From: a virus
Lineage: Duplodnaviria > Heunggongvirae > Uroviricota > Caudoviricetes
Length of the DNA: 64,000 bases
Strand: one strand, 5' to 3'
Virus record (IMG/VR): IMGVR_UViG_3300027833_000012
Location: 48,257 to 112,256 of that record
Each line of letters begins with the position of its first letter. Position 1 is the stretch's first letter. Position numbers and translations under genes: made by a program. The notes under the pieces were generated by a model that saw only the letters and a list, made by a program, of their open reading frames with translations, had not been told where the DNA came from and searched no databases. Below are positions 18,057 through 36,868 of this stretch, piece after piece.

Positions 18057-18125
18057 TATATGTTTTGATTTATTGATTTACACAAATATAAGAAGAATTT
18101 ATTTACTGTGCAAATTTAAAGTGAA
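18057..18125 (-). promoter_or_regulatory. promoter-bearing intergenic repeat, copy 2
   Basis: Near-identical to 16900-16961 with a 7-bp internal duplication; 5' of 17707..18051. Confidence 0.55.
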
Positions 18126-18715
18126 AAAGATTTAAAAAAATTAGTTATCTTGTAACAATGGTTACTAGAAAGACCATTACAACTGTCAACATGAAAGAAA
18201 TTATTACGTTGATTATATAACATGTCTGAATCGTCATCAATTATTACATATCTTCTGAAATTCCAAGCTAAACTTACATCTAATTCCAATTTATCACACA
18301 AATAATCCCTAATGAATGATTGAATCTCCATACCCCTACATGATTCGTTTCTATTAAAGTGTGGGGTAAGTCCTATTATATCGAAATCACAACCTAAAGT
18401 TTTAAAAAATAATCTCATATAGTCTAAACCATGACTTCTCCATGTTGAAGAAATAACAACTTTACTATTGGTATCTTTACATAATTCATTAAATAATTTA
18501 ACTGTGTTAAAGTCAACTGATTCGATATTATATTTTAATTTATCTACATGACTATAACTTTCAACTTCACTATATATGTTTTCATTATCCAACGATAGTT
18601 TATCTAGGTTATTTGGTTCTGAGTTTAATTCTCTTTTATACCTTTCAGAATAAAATTTATGATGATTTAAAACTCCATCAATATCTAAGAATATAATGTT
18701 AGGTACTTTACTCAT
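18116..18715 (-). CDS. HAD-superfamily phosphatase (possible polynucleotide 3'-phosphatase)
   Basis: Motif I FLDIDGVL (DxDG[TV]); motif II SST; motif IV IIDDDSD; directly flanks the tRNA island. Confidence 0.5.
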   Translation of the reverse strand: MSKVPNIIFLDIDGVLNHHKFYSERYKRELNSEPNNLDKLSLDNENIYSEVESYSHVDKLKYNIESVDFNTVKLFNELCKDTNSKVVISSTWRSHGLDYMRLFFKTLGCDFDIIGLTPHFNRNESCRGMEIQSFIRDYLCDKLELDVSLAWNFRRYVIIDDDSDMLYNQRNNFFHVDSCNGLSSNHCYKITNFFKSFSL

Positions 18716-19552: not shown

Positions 19553-19630
19553 TGGTCCAGGTGAGACTCGAACTCACATGTGACCAAATTACGGTTTCAA
19601 CTGCTTATGAGGCAGAGCCGATACTGGACC
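19553..19630 (-). tRNA. tRNA-like gene with CAU (Met/Ile2-type) loop, non-canonical architecture
   Basis: Perfect 7-bp acceptor GGUCCAG/CUGGACC; T arm GUGAG-UUCGAGU-CUCAC. The CUGC-CUCAUAA-GCAG hairpin lies only 8 nt after the acceptor (no normal D arm), and 23 nt separate it from the T arm. Confidence 0.45.
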
Positions 19631-19638
19631 TTATTTTG

Positions 19639-19715
19639 TTGTGCGAAAGGGATTCGAACCCTTATTTCCAACCTTTACCTTAGTCACGCTTATCAGACGT
19701 GCTGGTTACCGCACA
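19639..19715 (-). tRNA. tRNA-like gene with GAU (Ile-type) loop, non-canonical architecture
   Basis: Acceptor UGUGCGG/UCGCACA; T arm AAGGG-UUCGAAU-CCCUU. The anticodon arm CACGU-CUGAUAA-GCGUG is almost identical to E. coli tRNA-Ile(GAU) but displaced toward the 5' end. The D-arm-equivalent sequence lies 3' of it (CCAG...UUGG pairing). Confidence 0.45.
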
Positions 19716-19785
19716 ATATTACACTTTTATATCACAAAGATACAACTAATAATTTAAATACACAAGTAATTTAAATATTATTTTG

Positions 19786-19857
19786 CGGACATGGAGAATT
19801 ACGATATCTCGACCCTTCGGTTAACAACCGAACGCTCTTCCTCTGAGCTACATGTCC
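19786..19857 (-). tRNA. tRNA-Asn (anticodon GUU), copy 1
   Basis: GGACAUG-UA-GCUC-AGAGGAA-GAGC-G-UUCGG-UUGUUAA-CCGAA...; acceptor 3' CAUGUCC; T loop variant AUCGUAA. Confidence 0.7.
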
Positions 19858-19868
19858 TAATTATTTTG

Positions 19869-19940
19869 CGGACATGGAGAATTACGATATCTCGACCCTT
19901 CGGTTAACAACCGAACGCTCTTCCTCTGAGCTACATGTCC
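19869..19940 (-). tRNA. tRNA-Asn (anticodon GUU), copy 2
   Basis: Identical to copy 1. Confidence 0.7.
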
Positions 19941-20039: not shown

Positions 20040-20157
20040 TGTAAGAAATAGGATTCGAACCTATGAATGATTACCTTCTCTGATAATCTCAGTATAACTA
20101 ATGTTAACATACCATTTTCAAGTACCCTGGTGCTTTCAACCACTCAGCCATTCTTAC
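20040..20157 (-). tRNA. 118-nt tRNA-like gene (Ser/Leu-type D arm) with about 30 nt of extra internal sequence
   Basis: Perfect acceptor GUAAGAA/UUCUUAC; D arm GCU-GAGUGGUUGAA-AGC; T arm AUAGG-UUCGAAU-CCUAU; no canonical anticodon arm located; contains the palindrome AUGUUAACAU. Confidence 0.4.
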
Positions 20158-20970: not shown

Positions 20971-21049
20971 GTGTTTTAATTTTAATATGTCAATGAACTT
21001 TCTTTCATAAACCCCGACTGACTGTACAGTCGAGGTAAATATCATTATG

Positions 21050-21123
21050 TCAACCGTATGGGAATCGAACCCATGTTACTCGTTTCACAGACGAGCCACC
21101 TTTCCAATTTGGTGCAACGGAGG
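21050..21123 (-). tRNA. tRNA-His-like (anticodon GUG), imperfect acceptor
   Basis: D arm CACC/GGUG; anticodon arm CUCGU-CUGUGAA-ACGAG; T arm AUGGG-UUCGAUU-CCCAU. The acceptor CCUCCGU/ACGGUUG has two pyrimidine-pyrimidine mismatches. Confidence 0.5.
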
Positions 21124-21168
21124 GATGTTGAGTGAGGTTTTTACATTCACTTTATTTTGGGTGTTACC

Positions 21169-21241
21169 ACGGTATCGAGCCGAGTTCTTCAGATTCACAG
21201 TCTGACGCTTCACCTTAAAGCTTGAAACACCATATTTAATT
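21169..21241 (-). tRNA. second GUG-loop tRNA-like gene with degenerate T arm
   Basis: Anticodon arm UCAGA-CUGUGAA-UCUGA at canonical 27-43; acceptor 6/7; T loop CUCGAUA with a mismatched stem. Confidence 0.4.
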
Positions 21242-22704: not shown

Positions 22705-22781
22705 TGGTGCGAATAGTGGGAATCGAACCCACTACATCCGAGTTTAGAAGTCGGTACCCCAACCATTAGGGTCTTACTCGC
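22705..22781 (-). tRNA. candidate amber-suppressor tRNA (anticodon CUA) with encoded CCA
   Basis: GCGAGUA acceptor pairs UAUUCGC, then A and CCA. D arm CCC/GGG with G18G19. Anticodon stem CCGA/UCGG plus C-C closing pair and 7-nt loop UUCUAAA: U33, CUA at 34-36, A37 A38, as in supF-type loops. T arm GUGGG-UUCGAUU-CCCAC. Confidence 0.55.
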
Positions 22782-23526: not shown

Positions 23527-24813
23527 TTATTCTATTAAACCTGGGTTATATGAATTTGCTAAACGTTCTAGTTCATTTGCGTATTCTGGTATTATAATTT
23601 TCATAATATTAATATCTCCTTTAGGTATTATATTATTAAGACTAGTAGAAAGTAACTGAATTGCCTTATCCTCATCACCATCCACCATATCCATCCAAAG
23701 ACTTGCATCCTTAGTGTATTTTTTACCTTTAATACTTTTTATACCTCTTAATGCTCTAATTATATGCATATATTTCGATTTATAAGATTTACCTAAAAAA
23801 CCATTTAAATTTTTATCAATTTCTTTATATATTTTAGGTGTATAAATACCCTTAGTTTCGGATACAAACATATCAATACCCATTTTTTCAATAATATATT
23901 TCAAAGTCTCATATCTACCTTCAACTAAAACATGTCTATATATATCATCATTAATATCAGTACTTCTTATTTTTTCAAGTATTTCACTATCTGAGATATC
24001 TGATAAATCTTTTTTACTAATATTATTTACTTCTTCATGATATGTATCACTCCATTGTTCTATAAATTTAGAGAACTCTATATTATATGAACCATACATA
24101 TCAATTGGTGCTTTTATTTTTTTATCAGTACATAACACACCAACTACATACCTAGAAATTGGGTCTTGTATATTCCAATCTCCATCCTCAATTAAGTAAA
24201 ATATTACATCACCATCAAGTATTGAATCTCTAATTTGACCAGCACCACCTTCACCATCGTGCTGCCCTTTACTTGTCCAATTAGAATCATCATCTTTTAA
24301 ATCTTTCATATCTCTAAGGTCTTCACAAGATGTTATCCTAGGTTTTGCTGATTTACTAGCTAAATCATGTGGATGTCTCGATACTACAACATATAAATCA
24401 CTTCCTTCATCATTTGAACGATTTAATCTATCTAAGTATGAATTATAATTTTTAAGTAATTTAAAATCTAATTTATTTAATATTTTACTAATTTTAATAT
24501 TTTGATTACTTTTATTATTTTTAGCAATATTTTTATCCATATCAACAATAGAATAATTATATTTTTTAAGCATACTTGAAATATCATTATTTAGTTTTTC
24601 AATATTTTTAACATCAAATTTAAGTTTTGGTGTCTTCCTTGTTGGAGTGATTTGTTTACCAGTCTCCAAATTATAGTATAATCTATATACATTTTTACCA
24701 AAAATATCATCTAATTTACTTTTATCCCAAGTATTCCTTAATTGTTTACTTAAATTTAATGATATACTCTCATTCAAACCTTCCCTTAATAAATTTTGTA
24801 TAAATTTTTTCAT
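23527..24813 (-). CDS. leader-family protein A2 (MKKFIQNLLREGLN...)
   Basis: 428 aa; same leader; body unrelated to A1. Confidence 0.5.
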   Translation of the reverse strand: MKKFIQNLLREGLNESISLNLSKQLRNTWDKSKLDDIFGKNVYRLYYNLETGKQITPTRKTPKLKFDVKNIEKLNNDISSMLKKYNYSIVDMDKNIAKNNKSNQNIKISKILNKLDFKLLKNYNSYLDRLNRSNDEGSDLYVVVSRHPHDLASKSAKPRITSCEDLRDMKDLKDDDSNWTSKGQHDGEGGAGQIRDSILDGDVIFYLIEDGDWNIQDPISRYVVGVLCTDKKIKAPIDMYGSYNIEFSKFIEQWSDTYHEEVNNISKKDLSDISDSEILEKIRSTDINDDIYRHVLVEGRYETLKYIIEKMGIDMFVSETKGIYTPKIYKEIDKNLNGFLGKSYKSKYMHIIRALRGIKSIKGKKYTKDASLWMDMVDGDEDKAIQLLSTSLNNIIPKGDINIMKIIIPEYANELERLANSYNPGLIE

Positions 24814-25928
24814 ATTTCCATAAATTCTGGTACATTTTCACCAGGTGGGTTGTTTTCACTAACATATTTTATTAATTCTTTAAAATAATCTTCTAATTCT
24901 CTTTGATTATCTTCTTCACCATTTATGTCTTTTATTAATTTACTTGTTAAAACACTAACTGTTTCATTGTTTAAATTATTAGTAAGTTTTAATAAATCAC
25001 TAACATCAACTCTAAAATGATAATCACGTCTACTTTCGTATTCATTCATTAAGAAAATAACATAAACATCATCTAAAGTTAATTCATTAACATTAACATC
25101 TTCCTTGACCTCATAACCACTTACGTATAAAAGTTTTAATGAATCAATAAAATCTTCATTAATTTTTTCTTTTTTTACATCATTATATAAGTAATTTTGT
25201 AAATTACTTATATTATCAACGCTAATTATTTCATCAAAACCTTCACTTTTAGAAGGTTGTTCGTATGATTTAAACATTCTATCAAAAGCTTGTGGTGGTA
25301 TTGTTTTTGATTTACCCATTCGTTTAGCTGATTCTGCTCTATTATTTGCCACTTGTTTAATTAATTCTTCAGAACCTTTAAATTTAAAATCAACAGCAAT
25401 TTTAATATAATCACCTTCATTACCTTCGATTGCTTTTAATGCTCCTTTTCTTGAACCAGAATTCATATTAGTCATATCCACTACTATCACTTTACCACTA
25501 GGGTGTGCGTCTTTAACCCTTGAATTGAATAAATTTTGAACTTTATTATTTGCATTAATTACTTTATCAAAAACAGTGTCGGCCCATGTCATCCAGCTTG
25601 GTGATTCTATAACAGTACCATATTTTTCGTCAACATCACCTATTTTAGCATCTTCTGGTGGTGTTGAAAATAAATCATCATATGTCCAATTGTAAGTTGA
25701 AGCAACTTCTTCAACAATATCATCTCTACTAATTACATATGAATTAGGGAAATTACTTTTAATCCATGTTGATTTACCTACTGATGGTGGGCCTACTAAA
25801 ACTATTATTTTTCTCTTTTTTAACCCCCCATCTACCTCTTCACGTAAAAGACTATTTTGTTTAATATATCTTTGTTCTGAAAGTATATTAGCTTTCATCA
25901 TATTTTTAAATTTATCTAATTTTCTCAT
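24810..25928 (-). CDS. polynucleotide 5'-kinase (T4 Pnk kinase-domain-like) behind a 30-aa shared leader B
   Basis: VLVGPPSVGKSTW and FPNSYVISRDDIVEE parallel T4 Pnk GCPGSGKSTW and NPGFYNINRDDYRQ; DMTNMN ~ DTNLN; no DxDGT phosphatase domain; leader MRKLDKFKNMMKANILSEQRYIKQNSLLRE. Confidence 0.7.
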   Translation of the reverse strand: MRKLDKFKNMMKANILSEQRYIKQNSLLREEVDGGLKKRKIIVLVGPPSVGKSTWIKSNFPNSYVISRDDIVEEVASTYNWTYDDLFSTPPEDAKIGDVDEKYGTVIESPSWMTWADTVFDKVINANNKVQNLFNSRVKDAHPSGKVIVVDMTNMNSGSRKGALKAIEGNEGDYIKIAVDFKFKGSEELIKQVANNRAESAKRMGKSKTIPPQAFDRMFKSYEQPSKSEGFDEIISVDNISNLQNYLYNDVKKEKINEDFIDSLKLLYVSGYEVKEDVNVNELTLDDVYVIFLMNEYESRRDYHFRVDVSDLLKLTNNLNNETVSVLTSKLIKDINGEEDNQRELEDYFKELIKYVSENNPPGENVPEFMEI

Positions 25929-36458: not shown

Positions 36459-36500
36459 GTTGTTTAAACGTTTCTGTAAAAGGTACAAAAACGTGTCAAA

Positions 36501-36868
36501 TGTGGAGATGGAGGGGCTCGAACCCTCGTATCAACCTAAGCTTAAAAAGCTTTCTACATGTTTAGGTTAACATTTTTCTTATGTTCCAAAAATAGTTAAT
36601 TTTTTTATGGATACAAAAAACAAAATCCACTAACCATTTTTTTTAACATCACAAGGTTTAGTTTCGTGATGGTGGGCGAACCCACTACAATCATTTAGGC
36701 GAATGCTACCTCTCCTGATTCAACTTCTACAGAAGCGTTTTCAAGGAAATTTACGTCAATGTCAAACGAGTTGTCATCTAAAAAAATCGATAGGTTATTT
36801 AAGTGTTTCCATCTAACACTACATGCTTACAAGAAAAGTCATTAAGTGAGCAATTCCAAGTCATCCCC
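36501..36868 (-). ncRNA. ssrA: tmRNA-like (ssrA-like) RNA, about 368 nt
   Basis: 5' GGGGAUG pairs with 3' CAUCUCC (G3:U70 wobble, A73). T arm GAGGG-UUCGAGC-CCCUC. 5' segment ACUUGGAAUUGC resembles the tmRNA D-loop analogue. Internal tag-like frame ...ASVEVESGEVAFA-UAA (36736->36695). No ORF longer than 30 aa. Own promoter and terminator. Embedded UUCG tetraloop hairpin GUGGG-UUCG-CCCAC. Confidence 0.6.

What the first reader, a model, noticed from the sequence alone, without database searches (positions are those of the whole stretch)
19553..19715. Two adjacent tRNA-like genes with perfect acceptor/T arms and textbook anticodon arms placed where the D arm should be
First gene, 19553-19630:
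- 7/7 acceptor, a canonical T arm, and the Met-type arm CUGC-CUCAUAA-GCAG.
- That arm begins only 8 nt after the acceptor.
- About 23 nt then separate it from the T arm.

Second gene, 19639-19715:
- 7/7 acceptor and T arm.
- Its arm CACGU-CUGAUAA-GCGUG is nearly the E. coli tRNA-Ile(GAU) arm, again displaced 5'.
- The sequence able to form a D-stem (CCAG...UUGG) brackets it.

Overall:
- Lengths are 77-78 nt, so these are not simple deletions.
- They may be tRNAs with a non-standard core, D-arm-less tRNAs, or processed or rearranged precursors.
- Given the elaborate RNA ligase set, precursor rearrangement is not implausible.
Basis: seen in the sequence. Interest (0 to 1): 0.6.

Follow-up and report, generated by a model that had tools for sequence, protein, structure and literature searches.

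The report
Phage tRNAs with a rearranged core
The two odd tRNA-like genes are real members of a large, conserved and mostly unannotated class of phage tRNAs. In this class the D-arm parts sit after the anticodon arm instead of before it, an arrangement I found described nowhere.

Summary
On the minus strand, G1 (19630→19553, anticodon CAU) and G2 (19715→19639, anticodon GAU) have perfect acceptor, anticodon and T arms. Neither has a D hairpin, and 21-23 nt lie between the anticodon and T arms.

They are not degenerate genes. More than 150 distinct relatives share the layout. They come from IMG/VR phage contigs, 77 cultured Streptomyces phage records, and MAG contigs.

In this family, 3 nt after U8-A9 pair with 3 nt downstream of the anticodon arm. 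In a 50-sequence alignment this helix is 100% paired, with double-sided changes at all three pairs. A D-loop-like A-A-Y-U-G-G motif follows.

Anticodons are almost only Ile, CAU and Arg. The base after GG is A in 43/45 Arg members and U in 74/76 Ile members. A20 is the ArgRS identity base (from memory). In G2's subfamily the 15/48 equivalents covary perfectly (A..U 21, G..C 7).

Moving the D block back by computer turned 51/51 members into exact canonical cloverleaves (ARAGORN), against 0/51 for the native sequences.

Best reading: functional tRNAs whose core (positions 10-45) is block-swapped. Aminoacylation, decoding and the 3D fold are inferred, not shown. Seven literature searches found no description.

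The parts
19553..19630 (-). G1: 78-nt core-permuted tRNA, anticodon CAU (Met, or Ile2 if lysidinylated), main subtype
   Evidence: RF00005 at 33.7 bits. Custom model R1 at 94.4 bits. Aligns without gaps to 49 relatives apart from one extra U (A6). After in-silico un-permutation ARAGORN calls an exact 75-nt cloverleaf, tRNA-Met(cat).
19624..19630 (-). G1 acceptor stem 5' strand GGUCCAG, pairing with 19554-19560 (CUGGACC). Discriminator A at 19553.
   Evidence: 7/7 Watson-Crick pairs read from the sequence. The helix covaries in the family, 98.3% paired.
19622..19623 (-). G1 U8-A9
   Evidence: UA is present in 38/38 members found with a pattern that did not specify these positions.
19618..19620 (-). 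G1 D-stem-equivalent strand CGG (equivalent of positions 23-25), pairing with CCG at 19592-19594
   Evidence: Alignment columns 11-13 with 37-39 are 100% paired in 50 sequences, with 16, 21 and 9 double-sided changes. RNAalifold predicts the helix independently. 329/348 cells pair in register against 15-45% in shifted registers.
19600..19616 (-). G1 anticodon arm UCUGC-CUCAUAA-GCAGU. Anticodon CAU at 19607-19609. The 27:43 position is U.U, so the stem is effectively 4 bp.
   Evidence: U.U at this pair in 47/50 relatives.
19595..19599 (-). G1 spacer UGAAA (proposed 44, 45 plus a 3-nt AAA linker)
   Evidence: AGAAA, UGAAA or CGAAA is the family consensus. G-A-A-A is invariant in A6, though pattern 2 specified GAAA for part of that set.
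19592..19594 (-). G1 D-stem-equivalent strand CCG (equivalent of positions 10-12)
   Evidence: Same evidence as for 19618-19620.
19578..19591 (-). G1 D-loop-like joiner UAAUUUGGUCACAU (proposed U13, A14, A15, Y16-17, G18, G19, U20, A21, then C-A-U as 46-48)
   Evidence: UAA..GG..A.A are invariant or nearly invariant in A6. U follows GG in 74/76 Ile members and 4/4 CAU members, and A follows it in 43/45 Arg members.
19561..19577 (-). G1 T arm GUGAG-UUCGAGU-CUCAC
   Evidence: The helix is 98.4% paired in the family.
19639..19715 (-). G2: 77-nt core-permuted tRNA-Ile, anticodon GAU, second subtype (tail GG-UUG-N-AAA-Y)
   Evidence: RF00005 at 34.0 bits. R1 at 87.7 bits. About 28 subtype relatives. 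The closest is L429:4498-4574, with the same acceptor stem and compensatory anticodon-stem changes. Un-permuted, ARAGORN calls an exact 75-nt tRNA-Ile(gat).
19704..19706 (-). G2 D-stem-equivalent strand ACC (equivalent of 22-24), pairing with GGU at 19677-19679
   Evidence: (A/U)CC with GGU is conserved across the subtype. The register is shifted one position relative to G1. There is little covariation within this subtype, apart from L430, which has CAG with CUG.
19685..19701 (-). G2 anticodon arm CACGU-CUGAUAA-GCGUG. Anticodon GAU at 19692-19694.
19664..19684 (-). G2 spacer ACUAA, then GGU, then the D-loop-like joiner AAAGGUUGGAAAU (proposed A14, A15, G18, G19, U20 ... U48)
   Evidence: The subtype consensus is UA(A/G)-N-GG-UUG-N-AAA-(U/C). 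The equivalents of positions 15 and 48 covary: A..U in 21, G..C in 7, none mixed.
19647..19663 (-). G2 T arm AAGGG-UUCGAAU-CCCUU

Best explanation
G1 and G2 are elongator tRNA genes of a conserved, mainly phage-borne class whose core is block-swapped.

**Order of parts.**
- Canonical order: 8-9, then [10-21: D-stem 5' strand plus D loop], then [22-45: D-stem 3' strand, 26, anticodon arm, 44-45], then 46-48.
- Order here: 8-9, then [22-45], an AAA-type linker, then [10-21], then 46-48.

**Secondary structure (shown by covariation).**
- A 7-bp acceptor stem.
- One long composite hairpin: a 3-bp D-stem equivalent, an internal loop, and a 4-5-bp anticodon stem.
- A 13-14-nt single-stranded joiner carrying A14, R15, G18, G19, N20 and A21.
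- A normal T arm.

**Three-dimensional fold (inferred).** The three new junctions are 9 to 22, 45 to 10, and 21 to 46. In the known tRNA structure (from memory) each joins residues that lie in the same or adjacent layers of the core. The usual L-shape, with U8-A14, R15-Y48 and the G18G19/T-loop contacts, can therefore still form.

**Function (inferred).**
- The RNAs would be processed like their neighbours in the array and receive CCA, which is not encoded.
- G2 would be charged by IleRS and read AUU and AUC.
- G1 (CAU) would read AUG as Met, or AUA as Ile if lysidinylated.

Why phages keep this topology is unknown. Evasion of host tRNA-directed nucleases or modification is only a guess.
For: 1. 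**Detection.** Rfam aligns both genes with intact acceptor, anticodon and T arms, no D arm and a long insertion.
2. **A large family.**
   - A model built from G1 and G2 found the layout in 5 of 80 distantly related huge-phage loci.
   - Three independent pattern scans of IMG/VR found it again.
   - More than 150 distinct sequences were seen in all.
   - Members occur in 77 Streptomyces phage records, for example Jay2Jay NC_029098 75237-75313.
   - About 20 MAG contigs also carry members.
3. **The D-stem-equivalent helix.**
   - 100% paired in 50 sequences, and all three pairs show double-sided changes.
   - RNAalifold predicts it independently.
   - 329/348 cells pair in register against 15-45% when shifted.
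   - 0 of 10,000 shuffles of the distinct triplet combinations reach the observed pairing.
4. **Identity elements in the displaced D loop.**
   - The base after GG is A in 43/45 Arg-anticodon members.
   - It is U in 74/76 Ile members and 4/4 CAU members.
   - N73 is A in all Ile and CAU members.
   - A20 is the ArgRS identity element and A73 an Ile element (established knowledge, from memory).
5. **Levitt-pair equivalents.** In G2's subtype they covary without exception: A..U in 21, G..C in 7.
6. **Un-permutation test.**
   - Native sequences: ARAGORN/51.
   - Un-permuted sequences: 51/51 called as exact-end cloverleaves with the expected anticodons.
   - Control with the moved block reversed: 5/51.
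7. **Array context.** In 42 loci with at least 8 canonical tRNAs, only 8 of 49 permuted members duplicate a canonical anticodon. The baseline among canonical tRNAs is 127/692.
8. **Need in this window.** No canonical Ile or Met tRNA was found in the window. ATT, ATA and ATG run at 38, 35 and 27 per 1000 codons.
Against: - There are no expression, processing, aminoacylation or structure data.
- The 3D argument rests on recalled tRNA tertiary contacts. It was not modelled.
- The scan patterns imposed several conserved positions:
  - Pattern 1 imposed UA at 8-9, the CU..A of the anticodon loop, AU before the T stem and the GGG/CCC T stem.
  - Pattern 2 imposed GAAA, TAAYTGG and GGTTCRA.
  - Only features left free by at least one pattern are counted as evidence.
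- In the main subtype the 15/48 equivalents are almost invariant A..U, with two A..C cases, so they say little there.
- G2's D-stem equivalent is only 3 bp and hardly covaries within its subtype.
- G1's amino-acid identity is unresolved.
  - Some phages carry permuted GAU, UAU and CAU genes together (L428, L418), which favours Met.
  - G1's core is nearly identical to that of a UAU member (L342), and it has C4-G69 and C5-G68, which favours Ile2.
- No reason for the rearrangement is established.
Confidence: 0.8

Rival explanations
1. They are tRNA mimics that are not used for decoding. For example, they could act as decoys or competitors for host anticodon nucleases, modification enzymes or toxins, or serve as regulatory RNAs.
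For: The topology is unusual. The window carries RNA-repair genes (HAD_SAK_2 at 18116-18715). Phage tRNAs are known to counter tRNA-targeting defences (PMC10264068, title and abstract listed).
Against: Synthetase identity elements track the anticodon: A after GG in Arg members, U plus A73 in Ile members. Members fill otherwise empty anticodon slots in near-complete tRNA arrays. Acceptor and T arms are canonical, with no 3' deviation. No conserved partner protein was found nearby.
Confidence: 0.12
2. They are precursors that RNA cleavage and ligation re-order into canonical tRNAs.
For: In-silico re-ordering gives perfect cloverleaves in 51/51 cases. The same covariation would be expected after re-ordering. 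RNA-repair genes lie nearby in this window.
Against: - The change is a transposition of adjacent blocks, not a rotation, so circularisation followed by cleavage cannot produce the canonical order. Three cuts and three joins would be needed, and no such pathway is known.
- The native order itself gives a consistent nested structure.
- A conserved AAA-type linker and conserved lengths suggest the junctions are structural.
- No ligase-like neighbour was found by clustering the ORFs within 3 kb of family members in 118 loci.
Confidence: 0.03
3. They are ordinary or decayed tRNA genes: a normal cloverleaf that was missed, a class II-like tRNA with a long variable arm and a lost D arm, or pseudogenes.
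For: ARAGORN offers an 88-nt Ile(gat) call for G2 and, at a relaxed threshold, a Thr(cgt) call for G1. Rfam scores are only about 5 bits above the threshold.
Against: - The Thr 'anticodon' CGU of G1 lies on nucleotides that covary with the 5' linker, and its loop has C33.
- The 88-nt G2 call uses a mismatched acceptor stem.
- The hairpin that G1's insert could form (UUGAA/UUUGG) is not conserved. The family consensus AGAAAGGGUAACUGGUCACAU cannot form it.
- Conservation with compensatory changes across more than 150 sequences excludes pseudogenes.
Confidence: 0.03

Closest known systems
Canonical bacterial and phage elongator tRNA (Rfam RF00005)
   Same: A 7-bp acceptor stem, a 5-bp T stem with a UUCRANY loop, an anticodon loop with U33 and R37, U8, a discriminator base, no encoded CCA, and a position inside a tRNA array. 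All D-arm elements are present.
   Different: The order of the core parts differs. The equivalent of the D-stem 3' strand precedes the anticodon arm, and the D-stem 5' strand and D loop follow it. The junction becomes three-way, and the D stem and anticodon stem form one continuous hairpin.
D-arm-lacking mitochondrial tRNAs, such as metazoan mt-tRNA-Ser(GCU/UCU) (reviewed in PMC7609411)
   Same: No D hairpin lies between the acceptor and anticodon stems. Standard predictors miss them.
   Different: The mitochondrial tRNAs are truncated, have lost the D stem and loop, and are described as flexible (PMC7609411). The RNAs here are full length (77-78 nt) and keep a covarying D-stem equivalent and a G18G19 motif.
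Circularly permuted tRNA genes of Cyanidioschyzon merolae and some archaea (PMC3978253)
   Same: The gene order of tRNA parts differs from the canonical order.
   Different: In those genes the whole molecule is rotated, with the 3' half upstream of the 5' half, and processing restores a canonical mature tRNA. Here the ends are normal and two internal blocks are transposed, which rotation cannot undo.
Other natural non-canonical tRNAs: tRNA-Sec, tRNA-Pyl, allo-tRNAs with 8/4 or 9/3 branches (PMC5389517, PMC7609411)
   Same: They are functional tRNAs that depart from the standard cloverleaf. Some were found in phages and metagenomes.
   Different: They vary stem and loop lengths but keep the order acceptor, D, anticodon, variable, T.
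Viral tRNA-like structures such as the valine-accepting TLS of RNA viruses (PMC7749636)
   Same: They show that a tRNA-like shape can be built from a different strand connectivity.
   Different: They are 3'-terminal elements of RNA virus genomes that only partially mimic tRNAs (PMC7749636 abstract). They are not free decoders in tRNA arrays.

Membership tests
tRNA (Rfam RF00005 / canonical cloverleaf) | Score at or above Rfam's gathering threshold | tested here: met
   33.7 and 34.0 bits against a threshold of 29.
tRNA (Rfam RF00005 / canonical cloverleaf) | 7-bp acceptor stem, 5-bp T stem with a 7-nt UUCRANY loop, and an anticodon arm with U33 and R37 | tested here: met
   Read directly from the sequence. 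All three helices covary in relatives.
tRNA (Rfam RF00005 / canonical cloverleaf) | D hairpin (10-25) between position 9 and the anticodon arm | tested here: not met
   Only 5 nt lie between U8-A9 and the anticodon stem. Infernal deletes the D arm.
tRNA (Rfam RF00005 / canonical cloverleaf) | Core tertiary-contact nucleotides: U8, A14, R15:Y48, G18G19, A21 | tested here: met
   All are present but in displaced order. UA at 8-9 in 38/38 unbiased members. UAA..GG is invariant. The 15/48 equivalents covary, 21 A..U and 7 G..C. Whether the contacts form in 3D was not testable.
tRNA (Rfam RF00005 / canonical cloverleaf) | Aminoacylation and decoding on the ribosome | not testable with these tools
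   Indirect only: identity elements track the anticodon, and members fill anticodon slots in arrays.
Core-permuted tRNA class (defined here) | Layout: acceptor, UA, 5 nt, anticodon arm, 4-5-nt A-rich spacer, 3 nt complementary to the 5-nt linker, U-A-R..G-G joiner, T arm | tested here: met
   G1 fits the main subtype column for column (A6). G2 fits the second subtype with its helix register shifted by one.
Core-permuted tRNA class (defined here) | Becomes a canonical cloverleaf when the block [10-21] is moved back after position 9 | tested here: met
   G1 gives an exact 75-nt Met(cat) call and G2 an exact 75-nt Ile(gat) call. The family gives 51/51.
D-arm-lacking (mitochondrial-type) tRNA | D arm replaced by a short connector, with no D stem and no G18G19/T-loop contact, in a truncated molecule | tested here: not met
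   Length is 77-78 nt. A covarying D-stem equivalent and a conserved GG motif are present.
Circularly permuted tRNA gene | The 3' half is encoded upstream of the 5' half, with the acceptor strands internal | tested here: not met
   The acceptor 5' and 3' strands lie at the two ends in normal order.
Class II tRNA (long variable arm) | A normal D arm plus a conserved hairpin between the anticodon and T arms | tested here: not met
   There is no D arm. The inserted stretch has no conserved hairpin and instead pairs with the 5' linker.

The most novel reading that the evidence does not exclude
This is a previously undescribed topological isomer of tRNA, a block swap of the D and anticodon core. 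It would fold into a working L-shape and be charged and used in translation for AUN and Arg codons. It is widespread in phages, is present in cultured Streptomyces phages, and may occur in some bacterial chromosomes. Standard annotation misses it almost entirely. It may have been selected because it escapes host factors that recognise the canonical tRNA core.
Probability: 0.55. Interest if true: 0.9.

Novelty: new variant of a known kind. Interest (0 to 1): 0.85.

Why it matters
[quoted passage not shown] A natural, abundant, conserved class with a different strand connectivity would show that the tRNA fold tolerates core permutation.
- **It gives a test system.** It would let one ask which contacts synthetases, RNase P, EF-Tu and the ribosome really need.
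- **It offers scaffolds** for orthogonal tRNA engineering.
- **Phage tRNA repertoires are under-counted.** ARAGORN overlapped only 7 of 130 members in their genomic context. Most of the listed Streptomyces phage records leave the gene unannotated, and one calls it tRNA-Leu.
- **Experiments are feasible now,** because cultured Streptomyces phages carry it.

Tried and rejected
- **Exact search** for G1's core 32-mer in IMG/VR found no match.
- **blastn of the region** against GenBank phages hit only the neighbouring canonical tRNA.
- **Single-sequence MFE folding** was uninformative. It breaks G1's T arm, and G2's z-score is only -1.7.
- **MAFFT alignment of G1 with G2** placed a gap in the anticodon stem (A1). 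I padded G2 with one A to build model R1.
- **Hairpin in the insert as a transposed D arm** (G2 CUAA/UUGG, G1 UUGAA/UUUGG) was my first idea. I rejected it because the hairpin is not conserved and the 5' linker covaries with the insert instead.
- **A conserved protein partner** was not found. Clustering ORFs within 3 kb in 118 loci gave only HNH-type endonucleases (31 loci) and lineage-specific phage genes.
- **Literature:** seven full-text searches and three papers read found no description. The supplements of PMC10690425 are not held. Subscription journals are largely outside the library.
- **Not tested:** G1's identity could not be scored with isotype-specific models, and no RNA 3D modelling tool was available.

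Full report
**1. The observation**

The region lies in a minus-strand tRNA array at 18.8-22.8 kb of an AT-rich (about 28% GC) window in which all genes point the same way. The window also holds a tmRNA, a tRNA with a CUA anticodon and RNA-repair-type genes, and looks like part of a large phage genome.

Rfam's tRNA model hits 19553-19630 at 33.7 bits and 19639-19715 at 34.0 bits, against a gathering score of 29. Both alignments keep the acceptor, anticodon and T arms, delete the D arm (4 nt where 15 are expected) and insert about 19 nt before the T arm.

On the RNA strand the two genes read as follows:
- G1: GGUCCAG UA UCGGC UCUGC-CUCAUAA-GCAGU UGAAA CCG UAAUUUGGUCACAU GUGAG-UUCGAGU-CUCAC CUGGACC A
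- G2: UGUGCGG UA ACCAG CACGU-CUGAUAA-GCGUG ACUAA GGU AAAGGUUGGAAAU AAGGG-UUCGAAU-CCCUU UCGCACA A

ARAGORN at default settings misses G1. It calls G2 only as an 88-nt gene with a poor acceptor stem. At a relaxed threshold it proposes Thr(CGU) with C33 for G1.

**2. A large family**

Close DNA searches found nothing. I fetched 80 loci around distant homologues (42% identity or less) of the neighbouring HAD_SAK_2 protein. I then searched them with a covariance model built from G1 and G2 that contained only the three obvious helices.

The same odd layout appeared in L046 (GAU), L052 (UCU), L044 and L045 (UCU) and a second site in L045 (UAU). Comparing G1 with L044 showed a compensatory change. The linker CGG with downstream CCG in G1 became CAG with CUG in L044.

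Three pattern scans of IMG/VR, each fixing different parts of the molecule, recovered many more. Together they give well over 150 distinct sequences.

The family is also present in:
- 77 GenBank records of cultured Streptomyces phages (Samistivirus). In Jay2Jay it lies at 75237-75313, directly after a nucleotidyltransferase gene. Most listed records leave it unannotated, and EGole calls it tRNA-Leu.
- About 20 of 80 loci from a scan of GTDB species genomes, mostly inside dense tRNA arrays on MAG contigs.

**3. Structure**

The common layout is:
- acceptor strand (7 nt)
- U8-A9
- five nucleotides, x1 to x5 (consensus U-C-N-N-C)
- anticodon arm (17 nt)
- spacer (AGAAA or UGAAA)
- three nucleotides, y1 to y3
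- U-A-A-Y-U-G-G-(U or A)-Y-A-C-A-U
- T arm, acceptor strand, N73

I anchored y on the UAA..GG motif, which is independent of pairing. On that anchor x2-x4 pairs with y3-y1 in 329 of 348 cells, against 15-45% for registers shifted by 1-3 nt.

Nineteen distinct triplet combinations occur. Thirteen are fully complementary, for example CGG/CCG, CUC/GAG, CCC/GGG, ACC/GGU, CGC/GCG, CAG/CUG, CCG/CGG, CGU/ACG, CAC/GUG, AGG/CCU and AAC/GUU. In the first 65 members, 0 of 10,000 shuffles of the 16 combinations then seen reached the observed pairing.

On a structure-blind MAFFT alignment of 50 non-redundant sequences including G1 (A6):
- The helix is 100% paired.
- All three pairs show double-sided changes, in 16, 21 and 9 sequences.
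- The whole structure pairs in 94.3% of cells, against 59% in shuffles and 38-49% in slid controls.
- RNAalifold predicts the same helix on its own.

The 27:43 position is U.U in 47 of 50 sequences, so the anticodon stem is effectively 4 bp.

**4. The two subtypes**

G1 is a main-type member. Its linker, anticodon stem, spacer and y triplet match those of L342, a UAU member; its D-loop-like joiner differs by one extra U and one U/C change.

G2 belongs to a second subtype of about 28 sequences, mostly GAU. Its layout is UA-(A/U)CC(A/C)N, anticodon arm, A(C/G)(U/C)AA, GGU, A-(A or G)..GG-UUG-N-AAA-(U or C). Here the helix register is x1-x3 with GGU. L429:4498-4574 has G2's acceptor stem and compensatory anticodon-stem changes.

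In this subtype the base two positions after the U (the position-15 equivalent) and the last base before the T stem (the position-48 equivalent) covary without exception. A..U occurs 21 times and G..C 7 times, although the pattern allowed either pyrimidine. This is the signature of the R15:Y48 Levitt pair. These may represent few independent evolutionary events.

**5. What the arrangement is**

Reading the joiner as U13, A14, R15, Y16, U17, G18, G19, N20, (N), A21 and then 46-48 gives this mapping:
- x1-x4 correspond to positions 22-25.
- x5 corresponds to position 26.
- The first two spacer bases correspond to positions 44-45.
- y1-y3 plus the following U correspond to positions 10-13.

The molecule is then a canonical tRNA in which block [10-21] has been moved from after position 9 to after position 45, joined by about 3 A residues. 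The length fits: 73 nt plus 3-4 nt gives the observed 76-78 nt.

I tested this directly. ARAGORN, given isolated sequences with neutral flanks:
- of 51 native members;
- of 51 un-permuted versions as exact-end cloverleaves with the expected anticodons (G1 as Met(cat) and G2 as Ile(gat), both 75 nt);
- calls only 5 of 51 controls in which the moved block is reversed.

From the known tRNA tertiary structure (from memory: triples 9-[12:23], 45-[10:25] and 46-[13:22], and 21 with 8:14), each new junction joins residues in the same or adjacent core layers. The L-shape is therefore plausible. This step is inference and was not modelled.

**6. Evidence for function**

- **Anticodons are restricted**: UAU 49, GAU 27, CAU 4, UCU 27, UCG 10, ACG 7, CCU 1 and UAC 1.
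- **Identity elements track the anticodon.** The base after GG is A in 43 of 45 Arg-anticodon members and U in 74 of 76 Ile members and 4 of 4 CAU members. N73 is A in all Ile and CAU members and G, A or U in Arg members. A20 is the classical ArgRS identity element and A73 an Ile element (established knowledge, from memory). Their presence in the displaced D loop argues that synthetases see this loop where they expect it.
- **Members fill empty anticodon slots.**
  - In 42 loci with at least 8 canonical tRNAs, only 8 of 49 permuted members share an anticodon with a canonical neighbour. Three of the eight are CAU. The baseline among canonical genes is 127 of 692.
  - In L281, a 35-tRNA array has Arg(tcg, gcg, cct) and the permuted gene supplies UCU. 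L237 and L219 are similar.
- **The window itself needs them.** G1 and G2 are the only CAU and GAU tRNAs found. ATT, ATA, ATC and ATG occur at 38.4, 34.8, 6.4 and 26.5 per 1000 codons.

G1's amino acid is open.
- Phages such as L428 and L418 carry permuted GAU, UAU and CAU genes together, which favours Met.
- G1's near-identity to a UAU member, its C4-G69 and C5-G68 pairs (E. coli TilS determinants, from memory) and the high ATA usage favour Ile2.

**7. Rivals**

- **A non-decoding mimic** cannot be excluded without experiments, but it does not explain the synthetase identity elements or the slot-filling.
- **RNA-level re-ordering** would require three cuts and three joins, because a transposition of adjacent blocks is not a rotation. 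The native order already folds consistently, and no conserved ligase neighbour was seen. Sequencing the mature RNA would settle it.
- **Missed cloverleaves, class II-like tRNAs and pseudogenes** are contradicted by the comparative data.

**8. Novelty**

Rfam 15 has no family for these RNAs other than weak RF00005 hits. ARAGORN overlaps 7 of 130 members in their genomic context.

Seven full-text searches and three papers read gave no description of a tRNA with this order of parts. The papers read included a 2020 review of natural non-canonical tRNAs and the tRNAscan-SE 2.0 paper. The library does not cover most subscription journals, so prior description cannot be excluded.

I classify this as a new variant of a known kind: a tRNA with a new core topology.

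Noticed in passing
window 20040-20157 (-): A 118-nt RF00005 hit (42.7 bits) has normal acceptor, D and T arms, but about 50 nt where the 17-nt anticodon arm should be and a further 14-nt insertion. ARAGORN misses it. It may be an intron-containing tRNA or another non-canonical one.
   Followed up: partly
window 21160-21230 (-): A tRNA hit (42.1 bits) with a GUG-type anticodon loop has mismatches in the acceptor and T stems and an odd T loop (CUCGAUA). ARAGORN does not call it. A canonical tRNA-His lies next to it at 21049-21123.
   Followed up: no
window 19785-19857 and 19868-19940 (-): Two identical tandem tRNA-Asn(GUU) genes have an atypical T arm (GAGAU-AUCGUAA-UUCUC) with no UUC in the loop.
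   Followed up: no
window 36500-36868 (-): A tmRNA gene (64.5 bits) with tag peptide DNSFDIDVNFLENASVEVESGEVAFA sits in what looks like a phage genome.
   Followed up: no
window 22705-22781 (-): A tRNA with anticodon CUA, labelled Pyl by ARAGORN, is a likely amber suppressor. It hints at TAG recoding in this genome.
   Followed up: no
window 18116-18715 (-) and 24810-25928 (-): A HAD_SAK_2 'Swiss Army Knife RNA repair' domain protein and an AAA_33 kinase-like protein flank the tRNA array.
   Followed up: partly
L262:6514-6589 (1.28-Mb Actinomycetota MAG contig); L221:7618-7693: A permuted tRNA-Arg(UCU) lies alone rather than in an array. It is near a tRNA-His, an RNase_T-family exonuclease gene, a rhodanese gene and a GDSL lipase gene, which looks like chromosomal context. 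The class may not be restricted to phages.
   Followed up: partly
L429:4580-4670, L418:936-1025, L401:8578-8667: These 90-91-nt family members carry an extra hairpin after the GG motif, for example UAUC-UUGC-GAUA. It resembles a variable arm grafted onto the permuted core.
   Followed up: no
L428, L418, L177, L401, L429 (IMG/VR loci): Single phages carry three or four permuted tRNAs side by side. A typical set is GAU, UAU and CAU, sometimes with UCU, which covers the whole AUN box in permuted form.
   Followed up: partly
L344:4-80: One main-type member has the anticodon loop UUUACAC, giving UAC (Val). It is the only anticodon seen outside Ile, CAU and Arg.
   Followed up: no
A6 columns 15 and 31 (G1: 19616 and 19600): The 27:43 position is U.U in 47/50 members, leaving a 4-bp anticodon stem. 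A 2026 paper links 4-bp anticodon stems to relaxed decoding (PMC13092985, seen). The relevance here is unknown.
   Followed up: no
31 of 118 family loci, e.g. L093:9283-10329: HNH-type endonuclease genes often lie within about 0.6 kb of permuted tRNAs. No other protein is shared broadly.
   Followed up: partly
L044:15769-15842 and L045:14363-14436: Another odd tRNA-like gene has a good acceptor stem, D arm and T arm (AAGGG-UUCGAAU-CCCUU), but I could find no recognisable anticodon arm.
   Followed up: no
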